Shown piece after piece: positions 2,073-64,000 of a stretch of 64,000 nucleotides of DNA (positions are counted from its first letter, which is position 1; the number at the start of each line of letters is the position of its first letter). The position numbers and the translations under genes were made by a program. The notes below the pieces were generated by a model, which was not told the DNA's origin, searched no databases, and saw nothing but the letters and a program-made list of their open reading frames with translations. The DNA comes from Squalus acanthias (lineage: Eukaryota): positions 156,862,001 to 156,926,000 of the forward strand of contig CM059431.1 in NCBI GenBank assembly GCA_030390025.1. Direction: 5' to 3'.

Positions 2073-2179
2073 TTTCTTAGTGATTTTAATCGTATTTAGC
2101 TCCTCCCCCCCTAGAGCCCCCTGTTTGTCCAGTGTTGGGATATTCTTAGTGTCCTCTACCGTAAAGACTGAAACACAAT

Positions 2180-5740: not shown

Positions 5741-5747
5741 CATTCAG

Positions 5748-6140: not shown

Positions 6141-6184
6141 TATATATATTTATATTAAAGCGCATGTCCAGAAAATTAACGTAT

Positions 6185-36565: not shown

Positions 36566-36779
36566 TGAGAAGACGCACTACACCAGGTTATAGTCCAACA
36601 GTTTTATTTGAAATCACTAGCTTTCGGAGGTGCTGCTCCTTCGTCAGGTGAAGTCACCTGACGAAGGAGCAGCAGCTCCGAAAGCTTGTGATTTTAAATA
36701 AAACTGTTGGACTATAACCTGGTGTTGTGCGACTTCTCACTTTTGACCACCCCAGTCCAACACCGGCATCTCCGCATCA
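36566..36779. mobile_element. Palindromic Penelope-derived mini-insertion with hammerhead motifs on both strands
   Basis: About 87-bp inverted arms centred on 36652-36653, a 39-nt tail, and 12-bp TSD TGATCTCACTGG at 36554-36565 and 36780-36791. Confidence 0.88.
36651..36694 (+). ncRNA. Minimal type-I hammerhead ribozyme motif
   Basis: TCAC-CTGACGA-A-GGAGC-AGCA-GCTCC-GAAA-GCTT-GTGA. Confidence 0.78.
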
Positions 36780-38714
36780 TGATCTCACTGGGCCCATCCT
36801 CCTCGATTTACACACTGGGTGATCTCACTGGATCAATACTCACCGGGATACACACTGTCTGCGCTCTCTGGTTCCATCATTCCGGGATTATACACTGTCA
36901 GATCTCACTGGTCCCATCATCTACGGTTTCCACACCGTCTGCTGTCATTTGTCCCATCCTCCCCAGGTTTACACAATGTCTGATCTCAATGGACCCATCT
37001 TCCCCGGGTTACACACTGTATGATCTCAATGGACCCATCATCCCCGGGTTAAACACTGTCTAATTTCACTGGGCCTATTCTCCCCGGTTTACACACTGTC
37101 TATTTTCACTGGGCCTCCCCTCCCCTGGTTACACATTGTCTGATCTCAGTGGTTCCATCCTTCCCGGGTAACACACACTCTCTGATCTCACTGGGCCTAT
37201 CCTACCCGGGTTACACACTGTCTGATCTCACTGGTCCCGTCCTCCACGGGTTACACACTGCGTGAACACACTGGACCAATCCTGACCGGGAATGCACTTT
37301 CTAATCTCACTGGGACACTCCTCCCCGGGTTAGGTACTGTCCGCTCTCATTGTAACCATCCTCTACGGGATACACACTGTCTGTTCTCACTGGGCCATCA
37401 CCCGGATTATGCACTGTCAAATCTTACTCGGTACATCCTCCCTGGGTTACACACTGCCTGATATCACAGTGCCCATCCTCCCTTTGTTACACCTTGTCTC
37501 TTTTCACTTGGCCCATCCATCCCGGGTTACACACTCTCTGATCTCTCTGGGCCCATCAACATCGGGATACACACTGTCTGATCTCACTGGGCCAAACTTC
37601 CCCGGGTTACACACTGTCTGATCTCACTGGGCCCATCCTCCCCGGGTTACACACTGCCTGATCTCACTGGGCCCATACTTCCCGGTTTAAACACTGTCTA
37701 ATCTCACTCATTCCATCCTCCCCGGGTTACACACTGTCTGATCACACTGGGCCCATCCTCCCCGGGTTACACACTGTCTGATCTCACTGGGTCCATCATC
37801 ATCGGGATACATACTGTCTGATCTCTGTGTGCCCCTCCTCCCCGGGTTACACACTGTCTGTTCTCACAGGACCCATGCTCTACGTGTAACACTTTGTCTG
37901 CTCTCAATGGGCCCAACTTCGCAGGTGTATACACTGTTGAATCTCACTGGTCCCATCCTCCCCGGATTACACACTGTTCGATCTGACCTGGTCCATTCTC
38001 CCGGGTTACAGACTGTCTGCTGTCACTGGAACAACCCACCCAGGGTTACACACTGTCTGATCTCACTGGGCCCATCCTCCCCTGGTTACAGACTCTCTGA
38101 TCTCACTGGACCAATCCATCCAGGGTTACACACTGTCTGATCTGACTGGGCCCATTCTCCACGAGTTACAGACTCTCTGATCTCACTGGACCCATCCACC
38201 CAGGGTTACACATTGTCTGATCTCACTGGAGCCATCCTCTCCGTGTTAGACCCTGCCTGATTTCACTGTGCCCATCCTCACTTTGTTACACATTGTCTGT
38301 TTTCAGTGAGCCCAACCTCTAAGGGATACACACTGTCTGGTCTCACTCGGCCATCACCCGAATTATGCACTGTCGGATCTCAAGAGGCCTATCCTCCCCG
38401 GGTTACAATCTGTCTGATCTCACAAGGCCGATCCTCCTCGGGTTACACTCTGTCTGATCACTTTGGGCCCAGCTTCCCCGGTTACACACTGCCTTTTCTC
38501 ACTGGGCCCATCCTCCCCTGTTTACACAATGTCTGATTTCACTGGATCAATCACCCCCGGGTTATACTCTGTCTGATCTCAGCTCCAGGGCTGTCTGTTT
38601 ACTTTTGAGATTTCCCTCCCGGCCGCCTGAGACTTCCGCATTGTCACTCATGTAGAATGAAACGCACAATTTTCTCAGCAAACTGCAGACTTACCGCCCC
38701 CCACTCTCCTTTCC

Positions 38715-39060
38715 CGTAGCATGCCTTGTATTATGGCCCGATTCAATCTATCTCCTGGTGTTTATATCCCGGACCATCACCTGTATTCTGACCCGGTTCA
38801 GTCCATCCCCTGGTGTTCATATCCCAGACAATCCCGTGTAATATGACCCGTCTCAGTACATTCCCTGGTGTATATTTCCCGGATCATGCCCTTTATTATG
38901 ATCCGGTTCAGTCCATTCACTGGGGATTTTATCCCGGCTCACCCCCTGTATTATGGCACAATTCAGTCCATTCCTTGCTTTTTAATAACGGACCATCCAC
39001 TAAATTATTAACCGCTCAATCGATTCCCTGGGGTTAATATTCCAGGCCAGCCCCTGTTCC
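38715..39060. repeat. 55-bp minisatellite, about six units (paralogue 49775-50060)
   Basis: CTGTATTCTGACCCGGTTCAGTCCATCCCCTGG... recurs at 38781, 38836, 38891 and 38946. Confidence 0.88.
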
Positions 39061-39099
39061 AATTTAAATCCCTCCCTGTGCAATATATTCTCTGGGCTA

Positions 39100-39450
39100 A
39101 GCAGCCGTTCTGTCAGGCCGTGTGCTGAATGGAGCCGAGACCCTCAGTCACAGAGCGCGGCCCATTTAACAAGGGGAACATTCCTGTTTCTTACCTTAAC
39201 TCACACACCGGCCCGCCACGCCCGAACACAGCAAACCCCGCCCACTGAACATCCCCGGATTCACACCAGCTTGCAAGAGTGCACGCGTTCTCTGTCAGCA
39301 CTGCGCCTGCGTGAGCGATAAAGGCTGCTGTGTCAGCAATGCGCCTGTGAAAGCTCAAGGACGATCTGCAAACATCGCGCCTAAGCCTGAGTTCCTGTTT
39401 CACCTCCATGTATAAAAGCTCCGAAACTGCTTCAGTCTTCCCATACCTAG
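39100..39450. promoter_or_regulatory. CpG-rich promoter-like segment (paralogue 50095-50455)
   Basis: GC-box-like CCCGCC motifs at 39210-39245, TATAAAAG at 39411-39418 on +, and a minus-strand donor |GTAAGA at 39195; all retained in the paralogue. Confidence 0.4.
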
Positions 39451-39579
39451 ATTGACAATCGTCTTTTTTCTCAAATGCAATATTCCCCTAGAGTATAAAC
39501 TGATTTGGTGCAAGAATGGGACAACATGAATACGCACAGAAGATTGTGAGAAACATACAACATTAGTATAAAGGGTACT

Positions 39580-39922
39580 TCAGAAATAGGAGGGATCTGA
39601 GCGGGGAATTGTGAGGCAGACTGAGTTGGGTTTAGAGTGGATGTGCGCCAATGCCCGGAGAGTGGTAGATGAGCTGCAGGCTCAAATAGTTACATGGGAT
39701 TTTGATACAGTGCCCATTACGGAGACTTGGCTCAGACAAGGTGATCTGGAACGCACTACCTGAATGACTGGCGTAAGCAGATTCCATAGGAACTTTCTAA
39801 AGGCAACTGGTCCTTTGTTTGAAGATGACTGATTTGCAGCGTTATGGGGATAAAGCTGGGATGTGAGTCTTTCAAAGAGTTCGACGGGCCGAATGGCTTG
39901 ATTTTATAATTTTAAGGATTCA
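39580..39922 (+). mobile_element. Internally deleted CR1 (APE start fused to 3' end); paralogue 50600-50945
   Basis: MCANARRVVDELQAQIVTWDFDTVPITETWL joined directly to IWNALPE-type 3' coding sequence and a degenerate tail. Confidence 0.8.
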
Positions 39923-40032
39923 ACGAGTTGACAGTAACTCCCCTCGACAATAAGGCGACATTCGACTCGGTTTGGCAACAGAAGCCCGAGCATTCTGAGG
40001 TCAATGTGGATCAAAGTGAAAAGTTCCCGTAG
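39904..40032 (-). pseudogene. Candidate terminal exon LRELFTLIHIDLRMLGLLLPNRVECRLIVEGSYCQLVESLKL* (paralogue 51390-51518)
   Basis: Acceptor tgtttccag| and a phase-0 frame open for 42 codons in both copies while the other two frames stop early; the last few codons come from the adjacent CR1 tail. Confidence 0.35.
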
Positions 40033-40370
40033 CTGGAAACAATGGATTACTGTGATAGTTGGCGATTGTGTTGTACGGTGATAGGTCTCGAATTCTTACA
40101 TTTTGTTTGTAAGCGTGTGATAAACGAGATATATGTTTCAAGAATATGTCCAACAGCAGAATGTTAGCGTGTGAGATTCCATTTGGAAGGATTTTTTTTA
40201 GTAACGCTGCCACAAGTAGTTAATCTGTAAAATTAACCGTAACCTCTGACCAGATCCATTATTAGTATCTCAGCTTTTCAATATTATTGAACCAATACAC
40301 AAAAAAGGCGGCGGGTCAGTTTGCTGCAATAAAACACTATAATGGTGCTCAGTATATTCAGGCTCCTTAC

Positions 40371-40450
40371 CTTGTGCTGCGACTCCAGATTCTGGTTCCA
40401 CAGAGTCTGGGTAAGTTTGCGTTGTGTGTTCTGCAGGTTAATGACACACC
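40371..40450 (-). pseudogene. Candidate internal exon, copy 1 (80 nt, 1-bp deletion)
   Basis: tctttacccag|GGT...CACAAG|gtaagg splice signals conserved in three paralogues. Confidence 0.45.
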
Positions 40451-42227
40451 CTGGGTAAAGATCAATTACACATCACAGTCAGAAACAAGAACTTCACCCT
40501 GATCAAAACAATCCCTCCCCGCCCTGTTCTCTAGTGCAGGACTCGATCTGAAATCCACACGATCGCATTCAGTTTGCAAAGTTCAGAGAAATTATTGGCC
40601 TTTTCACCAAATCATTAATTCTGTGTGTGGTAACAATGATTAAATCCCACCCCCAGCTCTCCCATCTCTGGTTCTGAAGACCCCGCAGTGAAACCATGTC
40701 CTGTAACCGGAATCAGTTTCCTTTCGATTTCATTGCTCACCATAAAACCTGTTTATTGTCGGACTATAACGGGCGCAGATAGCAAGGGACAAAGATCGCT
40801 GTTAGGTTATTGGGATCAAATATCAGAGGGAAGGGCCCAGTGAACTCTCTGAGTTGAAATGTTCATGATTGGAGTTATATTCGCTTTATATCATTAGCTT
40901 TTTCTTTGTCTGGATTCTAACTCTGTACAAATGAACGATAGTCGTATCCCGGCTCGATTCCTCTCGGTACTGAGACTTTGATGATAATAATCTGACCTGG
41001 ATCTCCGTGAATATGTACAAATCCCGACTCCAGGCTGGTTAATGGATATTGTCCAATGATACTCATTCATTAGCAACAGTGCATTGATTATAAAATTCGG
41101 GACATTTTCTCCAGTGAATGAGTAACAGTCTCGGCCTTGATCAGCATGTTCACACCCATGAATATCAGGCTCCGGGTTTCATTACTGGAACTGAATCAGC
41201 AAATGCGTGCGGCAAACAAGTGAAACGTTTGCTTTACTAGCCTGTTAACTTATGTTGGTGGTGCTTTCATTTCACCTTTTCATTTAATGTTTCTTTTAAC
41301 AGTTTGCCAGCGGATTTAATTTATTGTGGGTCTGAAAAATTCTGACTGTTAAATTCATGTACAGATTAGCATTTGTTTTAATGTAATTATTAAAAGTTTA
41401 TGCTACCCTTTGTGATTCCTCCGTATCACATTTCCCTTCCTGTTCCTCTGTGCTGACGCTCCCAATCTGTTTAAGACTCGCCCTGCTTTATGTCTGAAAT
41501 CAATTTCATTTACCTGTCTACTTCCACCACCAGTTTTGTACTTGGCACATAATGATTACTTCCCTCCCCCACCGGTTCCATATTTGTTTCATTTCCATCA
41601 GCTCTATGTCGGATTGTTTCGTAACTTCCCTTTTCCAGATGCACTTTCCAGCCCAACTGTTCCATGACTGAATGTCCCCTGCATCTATAAGCGCTTTCTG
41701 TTCTACAACCTTCCTCCAACATAAATCACCCAAAAGCTTTTATTCCTTCCCCAAGCTACTGCAATGCAAGTTCACCGTTGCCCTTTCTTTCCTCCTGCAG
41801 CCATTCGCAATCCAGTTCTTTTTCTGATTCTCATCTCCTTTCCTTTAAACTTGCCCCATGTCTGATTACCTTCCCTGCTCGCTCCCCATTCTGATGCATG
41901 TAAATCCCCATCCACCACAAAGTAAACATCAAAGTTATTCTAAACAATTCTGCGACACACTAATTACATGCATAATACAACATTACCTGCATAGCCCAAA
42001 CATATCCAGTTACGAACTTGAGATATGTTAAACTCCATGGTAAATATTCCAATTGTTTTATTTTCCCTATTTTGCAGTTGTACTAGATTCGGGCCTCATT
42101 CCAAGGTTCAATTAAGCCAATTTAATTATTCGCTTCTATTTCCCTATTGAATCCATAGTTCACATCTAGATTTCTTTAGTGATGGGCGTGTTGCACCTTC
42201 CATGCCAGCAAGGCATATATTGTGGGG

Positions 42228-42546
42228 GAACATAGCAACAAAGTTAGGTCAGTCAGCATTTGGCCAATGCTTTGCCATTGAGTAAGATCATGGCTGATCT
42301 GTACCCCAACTCCATTTACCCGGCATTAGATCAAATGCCTTGATATGCTACCCTAAAAAAGCCAGTATCCATCTCAGTCTTGAAATTCCAATTGTCCCAA
42401 CATCCGCAGACTGTTGGGGGAGTGCATTACAAATTTCCACCGTTTGAAAATGTAATTCCTAAATTGCCCAGATCTAATTTAAGATCATGCCTCCATGTTC
42501 CTGATATTCCATCAGAGGAAACAATTTCTCTGTCTCCATCCTATCG
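42228..42546 (-). mobile_element. Old CR1 3' end truncated at the duplication junction
   Basis: AAGATCATGGCTGATCT 3' motif; the paralogue starting at 53718 continues uninterrupted. Confidence 0.78.
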
Positions 42547-43554
42547 AACTAAATTTCCCCCTTCATTTCCCGACTGCTGCAATGATGTCAGCATTCCCTC
42601 TCCAAGAAAGATTTAAAAAGTGCAAACATGCAATGACTTAACCTTTTAATTTCGAACGATTGAAGAAAGGATGGCCTGAACAACACAAGTGTCATCATTT
42701 TAATTTTATTAATAGTTTAAAATGCGCATTTTGAATTGGCGCTTATCCAATGACATCAACTTGAACGAAAATAGAGCGTGATGTATAGCGGGCAGCCAAT
42801 TCGCTCCTGTACATTTAACACCATTGTCCGAAGTTACAATTATGCACAAGGAGTGAAATACATATTGAACAAGGGCACCAAACTGGTGGGAGTGGATCAG
42901 CTCTCAGTTATACACTCGTCCCAATTTCCTTTCTAGTGACAGGTTGGAAGGGAGTTGAAACACCGGAATTAAATGGAAAATAAAACAAGGTGAATTGTAT
43001 AACCAGTGGCCGATCTGCTACCGCCCATGTTTTTCCCGCATTTCAACCCCAATGCTTTTCTCAACACAGCGCCAACCATTGTCGTGGTACCAAATACGTG
43101 GAGAAAAGAAGGTCGCAGGCATCCAATCAGATCCCAATTTACATGCAATTTTCAAACTAATGCTTGTTGAGGTCAACTAACAACAACGTAAACGCTCATT
43201 ATTAAGATATTATCTGAAAGGCTCACTGGTGGAATTGCTGGAATGATGGGATAGATATTCTTCTTGTCATAATTCCTTGTCATAATCCCGTATCAGGCTA
43301 TTAGTTAAAATGCTACTAGTTTCCAAACTTAAATATGTCATTGAAAATTTTGAAGCAAAAAGTAGTTTAAAAAAATACCTTTTATTACGGTGCCCGATTG
43401 CTTTGGTTTATTTAAGGTTTTGCCTTGGCGATATGCAAAATGAAATTGAGTGGAACCGAGAAAGCATTCTTCAGATCAAGCACAATTTTCGGCGCCATTT
43501 ACGCTCGAATCGCCGGTTGTAACGAAAGCGTAAAATCTACCCAAGAATAGGCTT

Positions 43555-46500
43555 TCATTGAGCCGATCCTCACTGGGTTACAAACTGTCTGATCTCACTG
43601 GGCCATCCTCCCCGGGTTACACTCTCTCTGATCTCATTAGGTCCATTCTCCCCTGGTTACACACTGGCTGATCTCAGTGGGCCCATACTCCCTGGTTTAC
43701 ACACTGTCTGATCTCACTGGGTCCATCGTCCCGGGTTACACACTGTCTGAGCTCAATGGACTCATCCTCTCCGGTTGACGCTTTATGATCTCAATGGGTC
43801 CATCCTTCCCGGGGTTACCCACTGTGTTATCTCACTGGTCCCATCCTGCCGAGATACACACTGTATGATCTAACTTGACCCATCCACTCCGGATTTGACA
43901 CTGTCTGATCTTACAGGGCCCAACCTCCCCGGGATATACACTGTCCGATCTCACTGGGCCATTTTTCCTTTCTTACACATTGCCTGATCTCTCTGGGACC
44001 ATCCTCCCCGGGTTACGCACTTTCTGATTTCACTGAAAAATCCGCCCCGGGTTTAACACGTTCTGATCTCCCTGGGTCTACCCTCCCCGGGTTACACACA
44101 GTCTGAACTCACTGGTGCCAACCTTCCCCGGTTGAAAACAGCCTGATCTAACTGACACATCCTCCACGGGTGACACAATGCCTGATCTCACTGGGCTCAT
44201 CCTCCGGGGTTACACATTGTCTGAACACACTGAGTCCAACCTCTACGGATTACAAACTGTCTGATCTCACTTGGCTCATCCTCCACAGTTTACAGACTGT
44301 CTGATCTCACTGGGCCCATCCACACTGGTTACACGCATTCTGATCTCACTGGGTCCCTCCTCCCCGGTTTACACGCTGTCTGATCTCACTGGGTCCCTCC
44401 TCCCCGGGTTACACGCAGTCTGATCTTACTGGGTCCATCCTTCCCGGGGTTACACTCTGTCTGATCTCACTGGACCCATTCTCCCCAGGTTACATACTGT
44501 CCAATCTCACTGGGTCCATCCTGCACGGGTTACACACTTTCTGATTTCATTGTACCCATCCTCGCCGGGTTATACTCTGTCTGATCTCACTGAGCCCATC
44601 CTACCATTTGTTATACATTGTTTGGCCTCATTCACACCATCCTCCCCGGGTTACACACTGTCTTATCTCACTGGACCCATTCTCCCAGGGTTACAAAATG
44701 ATTGTTCTCTTTGGGCCCAACCTCCCGGGGTTAGGCACTGTCTGATCTCACTGGTTCCATCCTCTCCGGGCAACATATGTCTGATATCACGAGGCCCATC
44801 CTCCCCGGGTTACAGGCTTTCGGATCTCACTGGGTCCCTCCTCCCCGGGTTACACATTGTCTGATCTCACTGGGTTCATCCTTACCGGGGTTACACACTG
44901 TCTGATCACACTGGGCCCAACCTCCCCGGGTTACACACTGTCTGATCTCACTGGGTCCAACCTCCCCGGGTTACACACTGTCTGATCTCACTGGGTCCAC
45001 CCTGCCCGGGGTTACACACTGTCTGATCTCATTGGACTCATTCTCCCCAAGTTACATACTGTCCAATCTCACTGGGTCCATCCTTCCCGGGTTACACGCT
45101 TACTGATCTCACTGGCTCCATCCTACCCGGGTTACACACTTTCTGATTTCATTGTACCCATCCTCGCCAGTTGATAGGCTGTCCAATCTCACTGAGCCCA
45201 TCCGCCCCATTGTTATACATTGTTTGCCCTCATTTACCCTATCCTTCCCGGTTTACAGCTTGTCTGATCTCACTGGGCCCATTCTCCCCTCGCTTTAAAC
45301 TGTCTACTCTCACTGGACCTTTCCACCCCGGATTACACACTGTCTGATCTCACTGGACCCATCGTCCCCGGGTTACACACTGTCTGATCTCACTAGACCC
45401 ACCAGCATGGGTTTGCACATTGTCTGATCTCTCTGGGTCCATCATCCCCGGATTACACATAGTCTGATCTCAGTGTGCCCCTACTTTCCCTGTTACACAC
45501 TCTCTGCTCTCACTGGACCCATCCTCTACGTGTTATACACTGTCTGTTTTCATTGGACCCATCCTACCCCGGTTACAAGCTGTCAGATCTCACTGGCTCC
45601 AACCTGACCTGGTTACACTTTGTCTGATCCCTCTGGACACATCCACCCCGGATTATACACTGACTGATCTCACTGGGCACATCATCCCTTTTTTACAATT
45701 TGTCTATTTTCACTGGGACCATCCTCCCCGTGCTACACACTGCCTGATCTCAATGGGTCATCATCCCCGGGTTACAGGCTGTCGGTTCTCACTGGACCCA
45801 ACCTGCCGGGTTACAAACTGTTTGATCTCACTGTGTCCATCATCCCGAGGTTACACACAGACTGATCTCAGTGGGCCCCTCCTTCCCCGGTTACTCAATC
45901 TGCTCTCTCTGGACCCATCCTCTACCGGTTACAAACTGTCTGTTCTCGTTGGGCCCATCCTCCCCGGGTTACACGCTGTCAGATCGCAATGGCTCCAACC
46001 TGCCCTGGTTACTCAATGTCTGATCTCACTGGACTCATCCTCCCCGGATTGTACACTGTCTAATCTCACTGGGCACATCATCCCTTTGTTACAACTTGTC
46101 TGATTATCACTGAGACAATCCTCCCCGTGTTAAACACTCCCTGATCTCAATGGGTCATCATCCGCGGGTTACAGGCTGTCTGTTCTCACTGGGCCCAACC
46201 TGCCGGGTTACAAACTGTTTGATGACATTGGGTCCATCATCCCGAGCATACACACAGTCTGATCTCAGTGGGCCCCTCCTTCCCCGGTTACACAATCTGC
46301 TCTCTCTGGACCTATCCTCTACCGGTTACACACTGTCTGTTCTCGTTGGGCCCATCCTCCCGGGGTTACACGCTGTCAGATCTCACTGACTCCAACCTGC
46401 CCTGGTTACACAATATCTGATCTCACTGGGCCCATCCTCCCGGGGTTACACAATGTCTTATCTCACTGGGCCCATCCTCCTCGCGTTACACGCTGTCTGA

Positions 46501-49500
46501 TCTCACTGGGCACATACTCCCAGGGTTACACACCGTCTGCTCTCACTGGGCTCAGTATCTACGGATTACACACTTTCTGATCTCACTGGACCCGTCCTCC
46601 GCGGGTTATACACTCTCTGATCCCATTGGTGTCAATATCACTTTGTTACACATTGTCTGATCTCACTGTGCCCATCCTCCCGGGATCCACACTGTATTAT
46701 CTCACTGGGCCTCTCCTACCCGGGCTACACACTGTCTGCTCTCACTAGACTCATCCTCTACGGGTTTCTCACTGTCTGCTCTCACTGTGCTCATCCTCCC
46801 CGGATTACACACTGTCTGATTTCACTGCACCCATCCTCCCTGGGTTAAAGACTGTCTAATCTCACTGGGCCCACCCTCCCTGAGCCCACCCTCCACTTTG
46901 TTATACACTGTTCTGTATCATTCGCCCTATCCTCTCCGGTTTACACACTGTCTGATCTCAATGTACCCATACTCTGCGGCTTATACACTGTCTACTCTCA
47001 CTGGACCATTCTCACCGGGATACAAACTGTCTGATCTCACTGGACCCAGCCGCTACGGTTTACACACTGTGTGATCTCACTGGGCCTCTCCTCCACGGGT
47101 TACACACTGTATTATCTCCGTGGGCCTCTTCTCCCTGGGCTACAAACTGTCTGCTCTCACTAGACTCATCCTGCACGGGTTTCACACTGTCTGCTCTCAC
47201 TGTGCACGTCCTTCCCGGAATACACCCTGTCTGATCGCACTGGGCACATCCTCCCTTTGTTACACACTGTAAGATCTCCCTGGGAACATCATCCCCGGGT
47301 TGCACACTGTCTGATTTCACTGTACCCATCCTCCCCGAGTTATGTACCGTCTGATTTCACTGGGCCCATCCTCCCCGGGTTACACACTGATTACACTGGG
47401 ACAATTCTCCTCGTGTTACACACTGTCTGATCTCACTGGCCCCATCCTCCTAGGTTGACATTCTATGCGATCTCACTGGACAATTCTTCACCACTGCTCC
47501 CCGTGTTACTAATTGTCTGATCTCAGTGGGCGCATCCTCCTCGGATTACACACCGTCAGCTCTCAGTGGGCCCATCCTCCCCGATTTATACAATGTCTGA
47601 TCTCACAGTGCCAATCGTGACCCGGTTACACACTGTCAGATTTCAATGGGCCAGTAGTCCCTTAGTTACACATTGTCTGATCTCGCTGTGCAGAGCATTC
47701 ATGGTTTACACACTGTCTGTTCTTATTTTGCCCATCTTCCATGTGTTGCATATTGCCTGATCTCACTGGTCCCATCCTCCGGAGTTACACACATTCTGAT
47801 CTCAATGGACTCATCCTCACCGGATTACACACTGTTTGTTCCAACTGGGCACAACCTCCCCGGGTTACACACTTTCTGATCTCAGTGGGCACATCCTCGC
47901 TTTGTTACAACTTGTCTGTTTTCACAAGGGCCCGTATTCCCTGTGTTACACGCAGCCTGATCTCAGTGGGGCATCATCCCCGTGTTACTCACTGTGTATC
48001 GCACTGGATCAATCCTCCCCTTGAACATACTGTCTGCTCTCAATGGGCTCATCCTTCCCGGGTTACACGCTGTCTGCTCTCACTGGGCCCATCCTCCCCG
48101 GGTTACACACTGTCTGATCTCACTGGACCCATCCTCCCCGGGTTACTCGCTGTCTGATCGCAGTGGGCGCATCCTCCACGGGTTACACACTGTTTGATCT
48201 CACTGGGCCCTTCCTCCCCGATTTACACACTGTCTGATTTCACTGGACACATCCTCACCGGGCTACAAACTGTTTGCTCTCACTGGGCCCATCCTCCCCG
48301 GTTTAGCCACTGACAGATCTCACTTGGTCCAACCTGCCCTCGCTACACAATGTCTGGTCTCACTGGACACATCCTGCCCGGTTTACACACTTTCTTATCT
48401 CACTTGGCCCTTCCTCCACGGGTTACACACTGTCTGAGCTTAATGGGCTCATCCTCCCCGGGTTACACACTGTCTGATCATACTGGACCCACCCTCTACA
48501 GGTTACACGCTGTCTTATCTCACTAGGCCCAACTTAACGAGTTAAAAACTGTCTTATTTCACTGGGTGTAACATCCCCGGATTACACACTGTCTGATCTT
48601 ACTGGGCCCATCCTACCCGGTTTACAAAATGGGTGATCTCACTGGATCAATTCTCACCGGGACACACTGTCTGCGCTGACTGGTTCCATCCTTCCGGGAT
48701 TATAAGATATCAGATTTCACTGGGCCCATCCTCCCCGTATACATAATGTCAGATCTCACTGGGTTCATCGTCCCCGGGTTACATAATGTCTGATCTGACT
48801 GGACCAATCATCCACGGGTTACAGACTGCCTGATGTCACTGGGCCAATCCTCCCTTTATTGCAACGTGTCTGTTTTGACTGGGGACACCCTCACAGTCTT
48901 ACCCACTTTCTGTTTTCACTGGGCCCATACTCCCCGTGTTACAGACCTTCTGATCTCACTGGGCCCATCCTCTCCGGGTTACACACTGTCTGCTCTCACT
49001 GGGCCCATCATCTCCGGGTTACAAAATGTCTGCTGTCACTGGGCCCATTCTTCACGGATGACACACTGTCTGCTCTCACTGGGCCCATCCTCCCCGCGTT
49101 ACACAATGTCTGATCCCACTGGGCCCATCCTCCCCGGGTTACCCACTGTCTGATCTCAATGGACGCATCATCCCCGGGTTACACACTGTCTAATTTCACT
49201 GGGCCTATCCTCCCCGGGTTATCACTGTCTCATCACACTGGGCCCATTCTCCCCGGGTTACACGCTGTCTGAACTCACTGGGCCCATCCTCCCCGGGTTA
49301 CACACTGTCTGATCTAACTGAGCCCATCCTCCCCGGGTTACACACTGTCTAATCACATTGGGCACATCCTCCCCTGTTTACACAATGTCTGATCTCACTG
49401 GGCCCATCCTCCCCGGGTTACACAATGTCTGATCTCACTGAGCCCATCCTCCCCGGGTCGCACTCTGTCTGATCTCACGAGGCCCATCCTCCTCGGGTTA

Positions 49501-49635
49501 CACTCTGTCTGATCACTTTGGGACCAGCTTCCCCGGTTACACTCTGCCTCTTCTCACTGGGCCCATCCTCCCCTGCTTACACATTCTCTGATCTCATTCG
49601 GTCCATCACTGCTGGGTTATACTCTGTCTGATCTC
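43555..49635. repeat. 40-bp satellite array 2 (about 6.1 kb, roughly 150 monomers)
   Basis: Same monomer, orientation and flanks as array 1. Confidence 0.98.
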
Positions 49636-50945
49636 AACTCCAGGATGTCTGTTTAGTTTTGAAGGTTTCCCTCCCGGCAGCCTGAGACTTCCGCCTTGTC
49701 ACTCATGTAGACAGAAACGCGCAATTCTCACATCAAACTGCAGACTAACCCACGCCACTCTCCTTCCCCGTAGCATGCCCTGTATTCTGACTCGGTTCAG
49801 TCCATCCCCTGGTGTTTATATCCCTGACTATCCCGTGTAATATGACCCGTTTCAGTACATTCCCTGCGGTTAATATCACGGATCATGCCCTTTATTATGA
49901 TCCGGTTCAGTCCATTCACTGGGGTATTTATCCCGGACCATCCCCTGCATTCTGGCACAATTCAGTCCATTCTCTGGGGTTTTAATCCCGGACCATCCCC
50001 GAAATTATGAACCGCTCAATCGATTCCCTGGGGTTATTATCCCAGGCCAGCCTCTGTTCCAATTTAAATCCCTCCCTGTGCAATATAAACTCTGGGCGAA
50101 GTCGCCGCGCTGTCAGGCCGTGTGCTGAACGGAGACGAGTTCCCTCAGTCACATAACGCGGCCCCTTTAACAAGGGGAACGATCCTGTTTCTTACCGTCA
50201 CTCACACACCGGCCCGCCCCGCCCGGCACACAGCAAACCCCGCCCACTGGACATCCGCGGATTCACAGCAGCGTGCAAAAGTGCAAGCGTTCTCTGTCAG
50301 CACTGCTCCTGCTTGAGCAATAAAGGCTGCAGTGTCAGCACTGCACCTGTGAAAGCTCAAGGACGATCTGCCAACATCGCGCCTAAGCCTGATTTCCTGT
50401 TTCACCTCCATGTATAAAAGCTCCGATACTGCTTCAGTCTTCCCATACCTAGATTGACAAACGTCTTTTCTCAAATGCAATATTCCCCTAGAGTATAAAC
50501 TGATTTGGTGCAAGAATGAGACAACATGAATACGCATTAGAGAGGAGATGAGATGTGCACAGAAGATTGTGAGGAACAAACAACGTTAGTATACAGAGCA
50601 CTTCAGAAATAAGAGGGATCAGAGCGGGGAATTGTGACGCAGACTGAGTTGGGTTTAGATTTGATGTGCGACAATGCCCGGAGAGTTGTAGATGAGCTGC
50701 AGGCTCAAGTAGTTACATGGGATTATGATATAGTGCCCATAATGAAGAGGTGGCTCAGACAAGGTGATCTGGAACGCACTACTTGAAAGACTGGCGGAAG
50801 CAGATTACTTCGGAACTTTCTAAAGGCCACTGGTCCTTTGTTTGAAGATGACTGATTTGCAGCGTTATGGGGATAAAGCTGGGGTGTGAGTCTACATTGG
50901 ACAGCTATTTCACAGAGCACTTCGGGCCGAATGGCTTCCTTCAGC

Positions 50946-51857: not shown

Positions 51858-51938
51858 CTTGTGCTGCGACTCCAGATTCTGATTCCACAGAGTCCGGTTA
51901 ATTTTGCGTTGTGTGTTCTGCAGGTTAATGAACACACC
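51858..51938 (-). pseudogene. Candidate internal exon, copy 2 (81 nt, open: GVFINLQNTQRKINRTLWNQNLESQHK)
   Basis: cccag| and |gtaagg flanks, phase 0-0, no stop. Confidence 0.5.
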
Positions 51939-53717
51939 CTGGGTAAAGATCAATTACACATCACAGTCATAAACAAGAACTTCACCCTGATCAGTACAAT
52001 CCCTCCCCGCCCTGTTCTCTGGTGCAGGACACGATCTGAAGTCCACACGATCGCATTCAGTTTGAAATGTTCAGAGAAATTATTGGCCTTTTAACCAAAT
52101 CATTAATTCTGTGTGTGGTAAAAATGATTAAATCCCACCCCCAGCTCTCCCAACTGTGGTTCTGAAGACCCCGCAGTGAAACCCTGCCCTGTAGCCGGAA
52201 TCAGTTTCCTTTCGATGTCATTACTCACCATAAAACCTGTTTATTGTCGGACAATAAAGGGCGCAGTTGGCAAGGGACAAAAATCGCTGTTAGGTTATTG
52301 GGATCAAATATCAGAGGGAAGGGCCCAGTGAGTTCTCTGAGCTGAAATGTTAATGATTGGAGTTATATTCGCTTTCGATAATTAGCTGTTTCTTTGTCTG
52401 GATTCTAATTCTGTACAAATGAACTATATAACGTATCCCGGCTCGATTCCTCTCGGTACTGAGACTTTGATGATAATAATCTGACCTGCATCTCCGTGAA
52501 TTTGTACAAATCCCGACACCGGGCTGGTTAATGGATATTGTACAATGATGCTCATTCATTAGCAACAGTGCATTGATTATAAAATTCGGGACATTTTCTC
52601 CAGTTCATGAGTAACAGTCTCGGCCTTGATCAGCATGTTCACACCCATGAATTGCAGGCTCCGGGTTTCACTTACTGGAACTGAATCAGCAAATGCGTGC
52701 GGCAAACAAGTGAAACGTTTGCTTTACTAGCCTGTTATACTTTTGTTGGTGTTGCTTTCATTTCATCTTTTCATTTAATGTTTCTTTTAACAGTTTGCCA
52801 GCGGATTTAATTTATTGTGGGTCTGAAAAATTCTGATCGTTAAATGCATGTACAGATTAGCATTTGTTTTAAAGTAATTATTAAAAGTTCATGCTAGCCT
52901 TTGTGATTCCTCCGTATCACATTTCCCTTCCTGTTCCTCTGTGCTGACGCTCCCAACCTGTTTAAGACTTGCCCTGCTTTATGTCTGAAATCCATTACTT
53001 TTACCTGTCTACTTCCACCACCGGTTTTGTACTTGGCCAATAATGATTAAATCCCTCCCCCACCGGTTCCATATTTGTTTCATTGCCATCAGCTCTATGT
53101 CGGATTGTGTCGTAACTTCCCTTCTCCAAATGTACTTTCCATCCCACCTGTTCCATGCCTGAATGTCCCCTGCATCTATAAGCGTTTTCTGTTCTGCAAC
53201 CTTCCTCCAACATAAATCACCCCAAAGTCTTTATTCGTTCCCAAGTTACTGCAATGCAAGTTCTCCGTTGCCCTTTATTTCCTCCTGCAGCCATTCGCCC
53301 ACCTGTTCTTTATCTGATTCTCCTCTCCTTTCCTTTTAACTTGCCCCATGTCTGATTACCTTCCCTGCTCGCTCCCCATTCTGATGCATGTAATTCCCCA
53401 TCCACCACAAATTAAACATCAAAGTTATTCTAAACAATTCTGCGACACGCTAATTTCATGCATAATACAATATTCCCTACATAGCCCAAACATATCCAGA
53501 TACGAACTTGAGAAATGTTAAACTCCGTGGTAAATATTCCAATTGTTGTATTTTCCCTATTTTGCAGTTGTACTAGATTCGGGCTTCATTCCAAGGTTCA
53601 ATTAAGCCAATTTAATTATTCGCTTCTATTTCCCTATTGAATCCATAGTTCACATTTAGATTTATTTAGTGATGGGCGTGTTGTACCTTCCATGCCAGCA
53701 AGGCATATATTGTCTTG

Positions 53718-54960
53718 GAACAGAGGAACAAAGTTAGGTCAGTCAGCCGTTGGCCACTGCTTCGCCATTGAGTAAGATCATGGCTGATCTGCACCTCAAC
53801 TCCATTTACCCGGCATTAGAACAAATGCCTTGATATGCTTCCCTAAAAAAAACAGTATCGATCTCAGTCTTGAAATTCCAATTCTCCCAACATCCTTAGA
53901 TTGTTGGGGGAGTGCATTCCAAATTTCCACTGTGTGAAAAAGTACTTCCTAAATTGCCCGGCTCTAATTTAAGATCTTGATTCCATTTTCCTGATATTCC
54001 ATAAGAGGAAACAATTTATCTCTCTCTATCCTATCGTATTATTTCAACATTTTAATCACCTCGATCAGATCACTCATCGAGCATCTACAATCAATAGAAT
54101 AAAAGCCAGATTTATGCGACCTGTCAATCTGAGAGTTTACTATTGACAGCCCACTCTGTCTCTTCATTCCTTCACCATTTCGAACCCAGTTCGATACCCT
54201 CTCACTTTGCCAATTACATTATGTGTGAAACCTTATCGAATGGCTTCTGGAAGTTCACACATATAACATCCATAGACACACCTTTGTCTATCTTTTTTGC
54301 GATTTCCGCAAACACTCAACTGGATTAGGCAGATATGATATATCTTTAATAAGTCGCGTTGGCTTTCTATGATCAGCTTATATTTTCTCCAGTATTCACT
54401 CACTCTATCCTTAATGACAGATTATGGTAGCTTCCCATAACCGCGTTAAACAGACACGCCTGTAGTTACCTGGTTTCTCCATCTCACCCATCTCAAATAA
54501 TGGAGTGAAGATAACAATATCCGTGTATGACGGCACAATTCCCGAATCAAGAGCCATTGAACGATTATGACTAACAATACTGCAATTCCCAGAGGAATTT
54601 ATTTTTGTACCCCGGGTGGCTGTCATCGTGTCCTGGAAATGGATCCAGCCTAAGATCAATAATTCATCCATTACCATTTTTAAAAATATTAATACAGTAA
54701 ATTCCATCCCATGATTCATTTTAGTGTCCAATCTATCATTGGTGTATAATTCTCTTCCTCTACTTTGAAAACAGATACAAAGTATTCATCAATAATTTTG
54801 CTATGAACAAGTGAGCTCTAATCTTATCACCGGTGTATGTCTTTAATGGACCCACATCTCCCTCAACACCTCTCTTACACGTAATATAAGTATGCATATT
54901 TTAAAATATTAGCTTTTCTGTTACTTGCCCCTTTTCCGTAGCCCCTTTTTGTAGCTCTTA
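53718..54960 (-). mobile_element. Old, heavily decayed CR1
   Basis: TPLFE.GE.EKPGNYRRVCLT in ORF 54411-54731; DFQKPFDKV-coding sequence near 54230. Confidence 0.78.
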
Positions 54961-54964
54961 ATGG

Positions 54965-55235
54965 AGAGACTGTAGAAATGGCCAAAACATGTCAGATGCA
55001 AACTAATGTGGCTAAGTCTGTGAGATGCACTTTGGCAGGAACAACAGGGAGAGGCCGCATAATCTGCTTGTTGCTATTTTAAACTGGGACAAGAGCAGAA
55101 GACCTGGGCTACATATCCACACATATTTAATGGTGGCAGGGCAAGTTGATAATGTGGTTAAGAAAGAGCATGTGTATATTGGCTTCGTAAATAGTGGCAT
55201 TGAATACAAAAACAAGCTAAAGCTTGTTTTAAATA
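54965..55235 (+). mobile_element. CR1 RT fragment
   Basis: MHFGRNN...QVDNVVKK...GFVNSGIEYK. Confidence 0.75.
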
Positions 55236-55704
55236 TTTAGTGAATGAACGTTTATGTCTTTAATTAATTTAGATTACAGTTTAGTTTGTAATTAATTACC
55301 ATATCTAGTTAAAGTTCTAGGTAGACGAAATTAAATTATTACCTGCAAAATGCAGCACTCCAAGTATTAGAGGCAAAGAGCAGTACCTCCTTCCCCCTCT
55401 GCTCCGAATTCCTACTCTCTAAATTTCCCATGTTTGAACAGTCTGTTTCGAAGCATTCTGTTTAAGAACCTCCGTGCTGACCACTCTGCGCATCTGCAAA
55501 TACTGTTTACTTTTATATCTTTGGAGCCACACTCAAGTTACAAGTACAGTCTCAGCTTCCTATCACAGTAATTTATTTTTTATTCGTTTAAGGGATGTCA
55601 TCGTCCCTGACAAGGCCAACATTTATTGCCCATCCCTAATTGGCCTTGAGAAGGTGTTGGTGAGCAGCTTTCTTGAACCGCTGCAGTCCTTGTGATGACG
55701 GTAC

Positions 55705-57575
55705 CATGGGTTGGGGCCTATTAGAGACAAAGAAGGTGATATATGCTTATGATACAGGGCAAGTCTCCTGATCCAGTGGGTTGCATCACAGGTTACTAAG
55801 GGAATTAGGGGAGGAGATCGCAGAAGGGCCTGCCATTATTTTCCAATTTTCCCCAGATTCTGGGGAGGTGCCTGAGGATTGGAAAGTGGCAAATGTGACA
55901 CCATTGTTCAAGAAAGGGTGTAAGGACAATGCTACTAAATACAGGCCGGTCAGTTTAACATCAGTGATGGCTAAGGTTTTAGAAACAATAATCAAGGCAA
56001 AATTAACGGACATTTGGAGAGGTTTAAGCAAATCAAGTGGAGCCAACACGGGAGTGTAAAAGGAAGCTGGTTTTTGACTTATCTAATTGAATTTTGTGAT
56101 CGAGTAACAACGTGGATTGATGAAGGGAATGCAATGGATGTTGCCTACAAGGATTGTCGGAAGGCTTTTAGCAAAGTGCCACATAGAATGCTGGTTAGCA
56201 AAATTGAACCTCATGGAATAGGTGGGTCAGTGGCAGATTGGATACGGAATTGGCTTAATGATAGAAAACAGCGAGTTGTGGTAAATTGCTGTTTTTCATA
56301 CTGGTGGATGGCAGACAGAGATGTTCTCCAAGGGTCAGGGCTGGTGCCACTGCCTTTTTTGATATATATAAATGACCTGGATATTGGAATACAGATTATA
56401 ATTTCTAAATTTGCCGCTAACACCCAATTTGTGGGTGTGGTAAACAGTGATGACCATATGCATCGACTGCAACAGGACATAGAAAGGAGAGCAAAATTGG
56501 CAGTCAACTGGCAGATGGAATTTAATACAGAGAAGTGTGAGGTGATGCATTTTGGCAGAAAGAACAGGGATGGTCAATATACACTTGATGGCACAGTTTA
56601 AAGAGTGTGCAGTGACAGAGGGACCTGGGAGTTAATGTGCATAGTTCCCTGAAGGTGGCAGTACATATTGAGAGAGTGGTTAGGAAAGCATATGGGATCT
56701 GGGGCTTCATAAATAGAGGTCATGATGTGGAGATGCCGGCGTTGGACTGTCTCAAGACACATCTCATTGTCTTGGCTGTGCTCTTTGTTGTAGCGAATAA
56801 TGTGAATAGATTTTGTCTGGGTTTAAATTGTGAATTCTGGAAGATTCTCTCATTGCTAACTTACCTGACGAAGGAGCGACAGCTCCGAAAGCTTGTAAAA
56901 TTAAATAAATCTGTTGGACTATAACCTGGTGTTGTGCGACTTCTCATTTTCATAAATAGAGATATTGAGTACAAAAGTAGAGAAGTTATGCTGAACATTT
57001 ATAAAGCGCTGCTAATGCGACAATTGGAGCATTGCGTCCAGTTCTGTACTTCACAGTTTAGGGAGGATGTGAAGGCCCTTGAGAGGTTGCAGAAGAGATT
57101 TACCAGATTGGTTCCGGGCATGGGTGATCTCAGCTACAAGGACAGGTTGCAGAAGCTACATTTGTTTTCATTAGAGCAAAGGTACTGGAGGGGTGATATT
57201 CGATAGAGGTGTACAAGATTATGACGGGTTTGGATAGGCTAGACGGGGAAAGGCTGTTCCCACTAGTTGATGGTACAAGGACTAGGTGATACATGTTTAA
57301 GGTTAAGGGCACGAGATACAGGGGGAATGTGAGGAAAAACTTGTTTTCACAGCGAGTGGTGATGATCTGGAATGCGCTTTCTACGGAAGTGATGGAATCA
57401 GAGACACTCAATGTTTTCAAGGGGAGACTGGATAGGCACTTGAGGGAAATAACTTGCAGGGCTACGGAGATAGAGAGGGAGAATGGGAATTACTCGATTA
57501 CTCTACAGAGATCCGGCACGGAACCAATGAGCCGAACGGCCTCCTTCTGTGCCGTAATGACTTCATGACTATGAT
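55705..57575 (+). mobile_element. CR1 LINE (same family as 6406-10680), interrupted by a Penelope remnant
   Basis: VPEDWKVANVTPLFKKG..YRPVSLTSV, KAFSKVPH, IYINDLD..SKFA, FSQRVVMIWNAL and an (ATGACT)-type tail. Confidence 0.93.
56719..56948 (+). mobile_element. Penelope 3' remnant with hammerhead motif and short inverted tail
   Basis: TSD TTCATAAATAGAG at 56706-56718 and 56949-56961; TTAC-CTGACGA-A-GGAGC-GACA-GCTCC-GAAA-GCTT-GTAA at 56861-56898. Confidence 0.85.
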
Positions 57576-57579
57576 CTCA

Positions 57580-58590
57580 ATTAAATCACCCCTTAATCGT
57601 TTATATACAAGGGAATACAAAGGTAGTCTGTACATTCAGTACTCGTAACTGAACCATTTTAGCCTCGCTATCATTCTGGTGCAAATTAACTGCACCCTCG
57701 ATAAGGCCGTTATGTCCTTCGTGATGTCCAGGGCCCAGAAATTAAAACGGAAATCACAATGGGATCTAATCAGAGCTCTGTACAGCTGTAGCAGAACTTC
57801 TAGAAGTTTGTATTCCAGCCCTCTTGATATAAAGGACAATATTCGATTTGACTGTTTCCTTCCTTTGGACTTACATAGATACATAGATACATAGAAGATA
57901 GGAGCAGGAGTAGGCCATCCGGCCCTTCGAGCCTGCTCCGCCATTTAATGAGATCATGGCTGATCCTTCAATTCAGTATCCCGTCCCCGCCTTCTCTCCG
58001 TAACCCTTAACCCCTTTTGCCTGTAGAAAAATATCTAATTCCCTCTTAAATATATTTAATGAGCTGGCGTACACTGCCCTCTGTGGCAATGAGTTCCACA
58101 GGTTCACCACCCTCTGAGTGAAGAAATTCCCCCTCATTTCTGTCCTAAATGGTTTAGCCCTTATCCTTAAATTATGTCCTCTAGTTCTGTTCTCACCCGC
58201 CAAGGGAAACATTCCTTCTGCATCTAGTCTGTCTAGACCTGTCAGAATTTTATACACTTCTATGAGGTCCCCTCTCAATCTTCTAAACTCCAGTGTGTAC
58301 ATCCCTAAACTAAATAGTCTCTCCTCATAGGTCAATCCCGCCATTCCTGGTATCAGCCTGGTGAATCGCCGCTGCACCCCCTCCATGGCAAGAACATCTT
58401 TCCTCAGATGAGGCGACCAAAACTGTACACAGTTATCGACTATCTTTTACTGATTGCCGTACTCGGAACCCAAGTCTCTCTGCTTATCCACAGTTCCTAG
58501 CTTCTAGCCATTTAGAAAATATTCTGATCTTTCTTTTTCAGGTCGGAAGTGATGGAGCTCACACTTTCCCACATTGATCTCCATCTGCCA
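57580..58590 (-). mobile_element. Old CR1 fragment containing a younger CR1 3' end at 57873-58430
   Basis: ORF 57973-58386 is an intact CR1 ORF2 C-terminus with a (CTATGTAT)n tail; decayed CR1 sequence flanks it on both sides. Confidence 0.88.
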
Positions 58591-58599
58591 CAGTTTTGC

Positions 58600-59192
58600 C
58601 CAGAGAGTGCAAAATCAAGGAAATTAGCCTCAACGTTCATCAATCACTGGCTTCAGCTGGAGTATTGTATCCAATTATATCGTCACAGTTTAAGAAGGCT
58701 TTCGAGGCATTGGAGAGGATGCAGAGGATATTTGCTGAAATGGTAAAACGATGAGGAACTTCAGTTACGTGGAGAGACTGGAGAAGCTGGAATTAATCGC
58801 CTTGGAGCAGAGAAGATTAAGGGATATTTAAAAGATGTGTTAAAATTTTGAATCTTCTCTGACAGAGTAAATAAGGGGAAACTGTTTTCACTGGCAACAG
58901 GGTCGGTCAACAGAGGACACAGATTTAATGCAATTGGCAAAACTGCCAGAGGTGAGATGAGACGAGGTTTGTTTTGGAGTCAAATAATTATGATCTGGAA
59001 TGCGCTGCCTGAAAGGGTGGAAGCAGAAGCAACATCAACTTTTAAAAGGGAATTAGATAAATACTTGCAGGGAATATATTCTGGGGCTCAGGGGAAAGAG
59101 CAGGAGTGTGGGCCTAACTGGTTTGCTCTTTCAATGATCCGGTCCAGGCTCGATAGGCCGAATGGCCGCCTTCTCTGCTGGATGATTCTATG
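58600..59192 (+). mobile_element. Old CR1 3' fragment
   Basis: QLEYCIQ, MIWNALPERVEAE..STFKRELDKYL, GGCCGAATGGCC and an ATGATTCTATG tail. Confidence 0.82.
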
Positions 59193-59472
59193 AGAGCGAC
59201 CCCTTACTCTGTGTTCCTAAGCGTGTAATAAACGATATATAAACTGGAATACTATTTACAGCAGCAGAATTTTAAATTGTGAAATTTTGTTTGGAAGTGT
59301 CATTCCGTTAAATGACGCAACTTCCAGTAAATCAATTTCTCAAAATTCCTCCTGTTACCAGTCCATTATTGTTCTGTTAACTTGACTCTATCTTTGAACT
59401 ACTACAAAAATAAACGGCAATTTCGCTAAATTAAATCACTATAATGTTGCTCAGTGTATTCCGGGTCCTTAC

Positions 59473-59553
59473 CTTGTGCTGCGGCTCCTGATTCTGGTTC
59501 CAGAGAGGCTGGGTAAGTTAACGTTGTATGTTTTGCAGGTTGTTGAACGCACC
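59473..59553 (-). pseudogene. Candidate internal exon, copy 3 (81 nt, in-frame stop: GAFNNLQNIQR*LTQPLWNQNQEPQHK)
   Basis: tctttgcccag| and |gtaagg conserved. Confidence 0.45.
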
Positions 59554-59571
59554 CTGGGCAAAGATCAGTTA

Positions 59572-59800
59572 TGATGCGGAGATGCCGGTGTTGGACTGGG
59601 GTGGACAAAATTGAGAGGTCGCACAAAACCAGATTATAGTCCAACAGTTTTATTTGAAATCACAAGCTTTCGGAGCTATCGATCGCCCCTTCCTCAGGTG
59701 AAGTAGTACTTCACCTGAGGAAGGGGCGATCGATAGCTCCGAAAGCTTGTGATTTCAAATAAAACTGTTGGACTATAACCTGGTGTTGTGCGACCTCTCA
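59572..59800. mobile_element. Palindromic Penelope-derived mini-insertion with hammerhead motifs on both strands
   Basis: About 94-bp arms centred on 59706, a 40-nt tail, 12-bp TSD AAAGATCAGTTA at 59560-59571 and 59801-59812; empty sites in both paralogues. Confidence 0.9.
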
Positions 59801-63983: not shown

Positions 63984-64000
63984 AATATTTAAAATCTATT

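What the first reader, a model, noticed from the sequence alone, without database searches (positions are those of the whole stretch)
36651..59755. Minimal hammerhead ribozyme family with a compensatory stem-I change
Seen: three insertions of one family (36658, 56865, 59715) keep CTGA[C/G]GA...GAAA-GCTT. Stem I is TCAC/GTGA in two and TTAC/GTAA in the third, a double compensatory change. Stem II GG[A/G]GC/GCTCC is kept while its loop varies (AGCA, GACA, GATCGATA). A second family (9037, degenerate at 63906) uses AACGTT instead of AAGCTT. Known: Penelope-like elements carry minimal type-I hammerheads whose palindromic stem III suggests dimeric folding. Inferred: the RNA structure was under selection in at least two shark Penelope lineages.
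Basis: partly seen in the sequence, partly recalled or inferred. Interest (0 to 1): 0.72.

Follow-up and report, generated by a model that had tools for sequence, protein, structure and literature searches.

The report
Penelope stubs with minimal hammerhead ribozymes
These are short dead stubs of two Penelope-type jumping genes in what is likely a shark genome, each carrying a small, predicted self-cutting RNA of a kind already known from such elements; the paired stem change is real but is a single inherited event, so the finding is ordinary.

Summary
The motifs are there as described, and are far beyond chance: 6 full minimal-hammerhead matches in the window against 1 in 200 shuffles. Five insertions of two families show head-to-head arms and a one-sided 30-40 bp tail; four have 12-15 bp target-site duplications. 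Family B follows a broken Penelope RT/GIY-YIG frame; family A is assigned by architecture only. The stem-I change (C-G to U-A) is a fixed subfamily trait in public contigs, but it is one event, is not significant in the window (85/500 shuffles), and may be a one-base deletion. Minimal hammerheads in Penelope ends, with compensatory changes, are published (PMC4209133). No cleavage is shown; every ribozyme-bearing arm spans the predicted cut site. Side observation: 5 of 10 arms stop 1-8 nt before the core, at an initiator-like motif about 30 nt after a TATA-like box, so the ribozyme may be the transcript's first ~40 nt. This scan has already noted these elements, and that idea, on other DNA. New member of a known kind.

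The parts
36566..36779 (.). Insertion A1: head-to-head hairpin of family-A pLTR ends (arms 36565-36651 and 36654-36740, 94% complementary), in the 40-nt satellite; TSD TGATCTCACTGG at 36554-36565 and 36780-36791
36654..36691 (+). Minimal type-I hammerhead motif: stem I TCAC/GTGA, core, extra A, stem II GGAGC/GCTCC, GAAA-GC-UU; predicted cut after 36687
36614..36651 (-).
36741..36779 (+). One-sided ~39-nt 'tail' of A1, ending at ATC-ATG (possible ORF start of the parent element)
   Evidence: loose ends
56719..56948 (.). Insertion A2 inside a CR1-type LINE: inverted tail 56719-56750, then direct arm from about 56751; TSD TTCATAAATAGAG at 56706-56718 and 56949-56961
56861..56898 (+). Hammerhead motif of the TTAC/GTAA subfamily; predicted cut after 56894
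56822..56854 (+). TATA-like TTTAAA (56822) and initiator-like CTCATT (A at 56852, 30 nt later) upstream of the A2 hammerhead; consensus motifs recalled, function inferred
   Evidence: joints near 56850
59572..59800 (.). Insertion A3: hairpin (arms 59611-59705 and 59707-59801, 98% complementary), tail 59572-59610 on the left arm; TSD AAAGATCAGTTA at 59560-59571 and 59801-59812
59711..59752 (+). Hammerhead motif of A3 (N7 = G, G-U pair in stem II, 8-nt loop)
59660..59701 (-).
7662..9133 (.). Insertion B1: inverted, internally deleted arm with tail (about 7662-7850), then direct 5'-truncated element; TSD TCTGCCTTTTACAAA at 7647-7661 and 9134-9148
7846..8720 (+). Broken C-terminal part of a Penelope-type ORF (end of RT region, GIY-YIG endonuclease), with a frameshift and stops
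   Evidence: 53-55% identity to P0001, E 8e-75
9033..9069 (+). Family-B hammerhead motif: stem I AGTT/GGCT, stem II GGGTC/GACCT, GAAA-CG-UU; TATA-like TTAAAAA at -35 and initiator-like CCAGTTC with A at -4
63822..63985 (.). Insertion B2: inverted arm with degenerate hammerhead (core 63906-63900, minus strand; GAAA>GAAT) and direct arm with tail from about 63909; no TSD found

Best explanation
These are five 5'-truncated insertions of two Penelope-like retrotransposon families whose end repeat carries a minimal type-I hammerhead motif, predicted to cut only slowly and as a dimer, and they were likely copied from uncut RNA. Steps: (1, shown) each insertion has two head-to-head arms with a 30-40 nt tail on one arm only, and four of five have a 12-15 bp target duplication. 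(2, inferred from the anole PLE, PMC11167929) the element's GIY-YIG endonuclease nicks both target strands, and its RT starts at two internal sites on the RNA, which yields the tail; one start from each nick would give the mirror arms. (3, shown) all seven ribozyme-bearing arms run through the predicted cut site, so their templates were not cut there (or were re-joined). (4, predicted) a single motif folds stems I and II but has no stem III; two motifs pair through AAGCUU (family B: AACGUU), probably with help from the element's protein, and cut after CUU/GUU. (5, inferred) selection on the parent elements' RNA kept core and stems. The C-G to U-A change arose once and was inherited by one subfamily. 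The genomic stubs themselves are dead and decay neutrally.
For: Anatomy and TSDs. Penelope ORF remnant upstream of family B. P0001 itself ends in a read-through resembling the translated motif. Two clusters of 3' ends about 36-45 nt apart (36735-36749 and 36780-36781, mostly long unique flanks) in 4 of 4 runs laid, as for the PAc tail. Descriptor 6 hits vs 1 in 200 shuffles. Stems I and II predicted with pair probability 0.71-1.0 in all five family-A arms. Extra nucleotide between 9 and 10.1, G10.1-C11.1 pair and palindromic 15.2-16.2 match the features listed in PMC4209133. In one search, 2 of 38 ribozyme positions carry listed substitutions vs 22 of 55 downstream; this is biased by clipping near the reference edge. 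TTAC and GTAA occur together on single contigs in two other organisms (X12 record 9, X14 record 19). GTAA is 33% / 9.6% / 0.3% / 0.06% of depth in X1 / X8 / X15 / X19, and the TTAC-type upstream is listed only in X1 and X8.
Against: No cleavage, expression or dimer data. No autonomous ORF was linked to family A (0 hits). Covariation in the window is not significant (85 of 500) and rests on one pair. None of 10 arms in the window and none of 10 inverted-tail joints listed starts at the predicted cut site. Cofolding gave stem-II-swapped dimers, not the stem-III dimer (the model cannot score the hammerhead fold). U at position 17 is the weakest cleavage triplet (recalled). In the anole PLE, ribozyme mutants did not affect insertion in vitro. 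One contig variant has 56861 T>C with no partner change listed, a possible uncompensated outer pair. Table 3 omits 56897 A>G although other rows imply it, so absence of a row is unreliable.
Confidence: 0.85

Rival explanations
1. The motif is conserved as a protein-binding, promoter or folding signal of the pLTR and no longer cleaves.
For: U17 triplet; all arms span the cut site; no 5' ends at the cut site; PAc ribozyme dispensable for insertion and no RNA-seq ends at its cut site; PMC4209133 leaves 'functions other than self-cleavage' open.
Against: The 11 catalytic core positions are intact in all family-A arms, while N7, loop II and H17 vary (H17 = C in 10.6% of X1 depth; A in one arm). The PAc homologue does cleave with protein.
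Confidence: 0.15
2. The stem-I change is coincidence: two neutral changes (or a one-base deletion plus a transition) in a fast-diverging region, fixed in a founder copy.
For: One event only. Sequence 5' of stem I does not align between the subfamilies, and 3-4 more differences lie within 5 nt 3' of it. Placement alone gives P 0.04-0.055; shuffles 85/500. Two transitions restore pairing automatically.
Against: The probability of a double hit with no one-sided hit and no core hit is about 0.007 (post hoc). Family B keeps a different 4-bp stem I at the same place.
Confidence: 0.25
3. Family A is a separate non-autonomous element (SINE- or MITE-like, or retrozyme) with a fixed palindromic form rather than stubs of a longer Penelope element.
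For: Two of three insertions are ~215-230 bp hairpins ending at almost the same place; no ORF linked.
Against: Hairpin centres differ between A1 and A3. A2 has 114 nt more upstream, and that sequence continues at least 151 nt further on a contig (X12 record 9). Direct-arm starts range from 56812 to 56928. No tandem array of monomers, and no canonical stem III.
Confidence: 0.1

Closest known systems
[quoted passage not shown]
   Same: Type-I topology, 4-bp helix I, extra nucleotide between 9 and 10.1, G10.1-C11.1 pair (family A), palindromic 15.2-16.2, no loop 3; dispersed single motifs and close opposite-strand pairs; families with compensatory changes.
   Different: Helix II is 5 bp (7-8 bp in Schistosoma). 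Sharks are not named in the text read or in 2 supplement files searched; file 1 could not be searched. Family B has G-U or A-U at 10.1-11.1.
EN+ Penelope-like elements with inverted pLTR, one-sided 30-40 bp tail and TSD (Adineta Pen2a, PMC3846280; PMC8557442; passages read)
   Same: Head-to-head inverted arms, optional tail on one arm, TSD, heavy 5' truncation, GIY-YIG ORF (family B), TATA plus Inr-like TCACT in the pLTR.
   Different: TSDs here are 12-15 bp (8-10 bp in the rotifer cases read). The stubs are mostly pLTR-only.
PAc (Poseidon of Anolis carolinensis; Frangieh et al. 2024, PMC11167929; main text read)
   Same: Hammerhead in the pLTR; two internal RT start sites bounding the tail; uncut RNA as template.
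   Different: In PAc the ORF starts in stem II and the tail lies about 110 nt inside the ORF. In family A there is no ATG at stem II and the tail ends at a candidate ATG about 120 nt downstream of the core (inferred).
Animal non-LTR retrozymes (PMC7229834, passages; bioRxiv 10.64898/2026.07.22.740005, first part and passages)
   Same: Non-coding, type-I hammerhead, PLE-derived; one chondrichthyan genome was surveyed and had them.
   Different: Retrozymes are head-to-tail tandem arrays; these are single or head-to-head insertions.

Membership tests
Minimal type-I hammerhead of PLEs | Core CUGANGA ... GAAA ... UH intact | tested here: met
   6 matches; B2 fails (GAAT)
Minimal type-I hammerhead of PLEs | Helix I (4-5 bp, open end) and helix II form | tested here: met
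   pair probabilities 0.71-1.0 in five family-A arms; stem I not formed in the aged 9037 copy
Minimal type-I hammerhead of PLEs | Extra nucleotide between 9 and 10.1; palindromic 15.2-16.2; no stable helix III | tested here: met
   (extra = 1, palindrome = 2 in all 6 matches)
Minimal type-I hammerhead of PLEs | Statistically significant covariation | tested here: inconclusive
   one pair, 85/500; only three independent insertions; no genome held
Minimal type-I hammerhead of PLEs | Self-cleavage as dimer or with protein | not testable with these tools
   only contigs available
Rfam hammerhead families | Match to a curated covariance model | tested here: not met
   no hammerhead hit at E <= 1; not filed under an Rfam family
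EN+ Penelope-like element | ORF with PLE-type RT and C-terminal GIY-YIG (family B) | tested here: met
   GIY-YIG on P0001 at E 0.0019, below Pfam's cut-off; window fragments alone gave no Pfam GIY-YIG hit
EN+ Penelope-like element | ORF with PLE-type RT and GIY-YIG (family A) | tested here: inconclusive
   no ORF in the three stubs; one search gave 0 hits
EN+ Penelope-like element | Inverted 5'-truncated arm, one-sided 30-40 bp tail, TSD | tested here: met
   5 of 5 insertions have arm and tail, 4 of 5 a TSD; two 3'-end clusters
EN+ Penelope-like element | Clade (Poseidon vs Neptune) by RT phylogeny | not tested
   no tree built
Non-LTR retrozyme | Head-to-tail tandem monomers each with a hammerhead | tested here: not met
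   no tandem same-strand cores in the window

The most novel reading that the evidence does not exclude
In both families the pLTR promoter (TATA-like box, then an initiator about 30 nt later) starts transcription 4-13 nt before the hammerhead core. The ribozyme would then be the capped first ~40 nt of the element's mRNA, about 120 nt ahead of the ORF start in family A. The short stubs would be run-off copies from the tail to the cap, and dimer- or protein-triggered cleavage would act as a decapping switch on the element's own mRNA rather than as a way to release a template.
Probability: 0.35. Interest if true: 0.5.

Novelty: new member of a known kind. Interest (0 to 1): 0.2.

Why it matters
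As found, it extends a published motif to likely shark Penelope families; I found no paper describing the shark motifs (only open-licence papers are searched, and Repbase/Dfam were not available). The role of PLE hammerheads is still open. Very abundant shark families with subfamily-fixed stem changes and sharp insertion ends are good material to test whether the ribozyme sits at the transcript's start and whether it cuts in vivo. The compensatory pair alone does not advance that question.

Tried and rejected
Own genome: none held, so no genome-wide covariance model or R-scape-type test was possible. Rfam: no hammerhead hit; one chance hit, BtsR1, E 0.25. A 20-nt family-A pattern gave 0 hits in metagenome and viral contigs. 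A 21-nt family-B pattern gave 6 metagenome loci of 59-67% GC whose match does not extend beyond 21-31 nt; rejected as chance. The 57-codon open frame through A2 had 0 relatives among 1.84 billion proteins; treated as spurious. Expression: no RNA holder listed; X8 and X19 are only guessed to be RNA and are contigs, so they say nothing on transcription, ends or cleavage. The 7-8 bp 'stem I' at 36658 is an artefact of the hairpin centre. Core-like hits at 40674, 52162 and 3264-3289 fail the full descriptor. A minus-strand splice-donor-like reading of the A2 stem I was noticed and not pursued. Lunse et al. (dimers) is not held; seen only as cited in PMC6765202 (passages). Sequence look-up in earlier findings returned nothing.
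Full report
Observation. The three family-A motifs and the two family-B motifs are at the coordinates given, with the stems and loops as described. A loose core pattern matches 10 places against a mean of 4.6 in shuffles. A full minimal-hammerhead descriptor matches 6 places (9037+, 36658+, 36647-, 56865+, 59715+, 59697-) against 1 match in 200 dinucleotide shuffles. Rfam has no hammerhead hit.

Anatomy. There are five insertions. A1 (36566-36779) and A3 (59572-59800) are head-to-head hairpins; their arms differ at 5 of 87 and 2 of 95 positions, one arm carries an extra ~39-nt tail, and each has a 12-bp target duplication. A2 (56719-56948) is an inverted tail plus a direct arm with 114 nt upstream of the core and a 13-bp duplication, inside a CR1-type LINE (RT match in the upstream frame; the CR1 label is from recall). 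B1 (7662-9133, 15-bp duplication) has an inverted, internally deleted arm, then a broken ORF end at 7846-8720. That ORF is 53-55% identical (E 8e-75) to P0001, a Stegostoma tigrinum protein with RT-type and GIY-YIG motifs (GIY-YIG at E 0.0019, under Pfam's cut-off), and is followed by a pyrimidine-rich UTR and the motif at 9037. B2 (63822-63985) is an old inverted pair with no duplication found. This is the published layout of endonuclease-bearing Penelope-like elements: inverted 5'-truncated arm, 30-40 bp tail on one side, TSD (PMC3846280, PMC8557442; passages). For family A no ORF could be linked, so its assignment rests on architecture.

Copies elsewhere. No genome is held. Twenty public runs under at least seven organism labels hold parts of the region, none half of it; I laid 6 of the 20. 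On the A1 arm, 1556-9999 contigs per run were laid. Their 3' ends fall in two groups, 36735-36749 and 36780-36781, in all four runs, the signature of two internal RT start sites described for the anole element (PMC11167929). After the ATG at 36779-36781 the loose consensus begins GC in 3 of 4 runs, which suggests a start codon of the parent ORF (inferred).

The compensatory change. It is one pair, C-G in four arms and U-A in A2. It is not a private double mutation. TTAC and GTAA lie on one contig in X12 (record 9, one other letter over 56756-56940) and in X14 (record 19). GTAA makes up 33%, 9.6%, 0.3% and 0.06% of depth in X1, X8, X15 and X19. The TTAC-type upstream is listed as a loose end only in X1 (24 contigs, against 62 of the other type) and X8 (2 against 7), with 228 rows not shown, and X15 has no cover over 56751-56858. 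So it marks a subfamily and counts as one event. In the window 85 of 500 shuffles reach the observed covariation. Random placement of the 6-7 differences hits both sides of some pair with P 0.04-0.055, and does so with no one-sided or core hit with P 0.007 (post hoc). The 5' side may be a one-base deletion (ACTTCAC vs ACTTAC), since the flanks do not align. Against a clean picture: one variant has 56861 T>C with no partner change listed, and omits the row 56897 A>G that its other rows imply, so its blanks are unreliable. Broader support for selection comes from where variation falls: N7 (C, G; U in X19 loose ends), loop II length, and H17 (U; A in one arm; C in 10.6% of X1 depth). Substitutions are listed at 2 of 38 ribozyme positions against 22 of 55 downstream, a comparison biased by clipping at the reference edge.

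How it likely works. A monomer is predicted to fold stems I and II (pair probabilities 0.71-1.0 in family A) with nothing for stem III. AAGCUU and AACGUU can pair between two molecules at -4.3 and -3.5 kcal/mol, but cofolding preferred stem-II-swapped dimers, and the 9037 and 63906 copies no longer fold stem I. Published minimal hammerheads cut weakly as dimers and not as monomers (PMC4209133; review passages PMC6765202). The anole one cuts only with its protein and is dispensable for insertion in vitro. Here all seven ribozyme-bearing arms span the predicted cut site, and none of 10 arms or 10 listed joints starts at it, so the templates were uncut or re-joined. I commit to this: stubs made by target-primed copying of uncut RNA from two internal starts, one from each nicked strand (the two-sided reading is taken from earlier scan notes and fits; not tested here), with a slow dimer- or protein-dependent ribozyme kept by selection on the parent elements. 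Confidence 0.85 for identity; cleavage is untested.

Side observation. Five of 10 arms, in 3 of 5 insertions, stop 1-8 nt before the core (P about 0.03 counting insertions under a uniform 250-nt model). About 3 of 10 joints of the A2 subfamily start near 56850 (P about 0.06); five others start at 56907-56928, downstream of the ribozyme, and two elsewhere (56868, 56812). Initiator-like words lie at these points (TCACTTC, A at -7; CTCATT, A at -13; CCAGTTC, A at -4). In A2 and B1, where the upstream is kept, a TATA-like word lies 30-31 nt earlier (consensus motifs recalled). A TATA plus TCACT pair is described in a rotifer pLTR. In D. virilis Penelope a 75-bp intron begins 46 bp after the start (PMC2377424, passages), and its end maps to helix I. 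I noted the initiator idea; earlier scan notes had reached it on other DNA and prompted the TATA check. One of them reports more ends inside the ribozyme than before it in one family. One paper search listed two papers, neither on this question by title or abstract start.

Novelty. [quoted passage not shown] A 2026 preprint covers one chondrichthyan (its supplements were not seen). Searches for shark-specific descriptions found none; supplement file 1 of PMC4209133 and the Lunse paper could not be read and may list shark motifs. The scan holds 525 notes with these words, and 818 fit a similar look-up in this genome. Verdict: real, new member of a known kind, interest 0.2.

Noticed in passing
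window 19291-38581 and 43566-49636: Long, diverged 40-nt satellite (about 68-71% match to consensus) with 397-nt higher-order duplications; insertion A1 sits inside it.
   Followed up: no
window 11137-15290: GC-rich 29-30-nt tandem repeat arrays.
   Followed up: no
window 877-1800, 3525-4481 (minus), 55975-56601 (plus): LINE fragments with RT and APE-endonuclease Pfam matches; further inverted matches between 0.7-7.7 kb and 55-63 kb are probably copies of the same LINE families.
   Followed up: partly
window 36697-36702 (and the equivalent in all family-A arms): AATAAA lies 10 nt after the predicted cut site and is invariant in five arms; a possible polyadenylation signal of the pLTR.
   Followed up: no
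window 36776-36781: The family-A tail ends at ATC-ATG, and contigs continue with GC in 3 of 4 runs: a Kozak-like start, so copying may begin at the ORF's start codon.
   Followed up: partly
window 40600-40760, 52090-52250, about 59930-60050: A dispersed repeat carrying a core-like CTGAAGA...GAAA word but no hammerhead stems.
   Followed up: partly
window 56854-56866, minus strand: The A2 stem-I region reads CAGGTAAGT on the minus strand, a perfect splice-donor consensus (recalled); probably chance.
   Followed up: no
run X1, joint 36781 to 36654: One contig joins the tail end back to the ribozyme start with 25 letters between, a head-to-tail mini-tandem like a nascent retrozyme.
   Followed up: no
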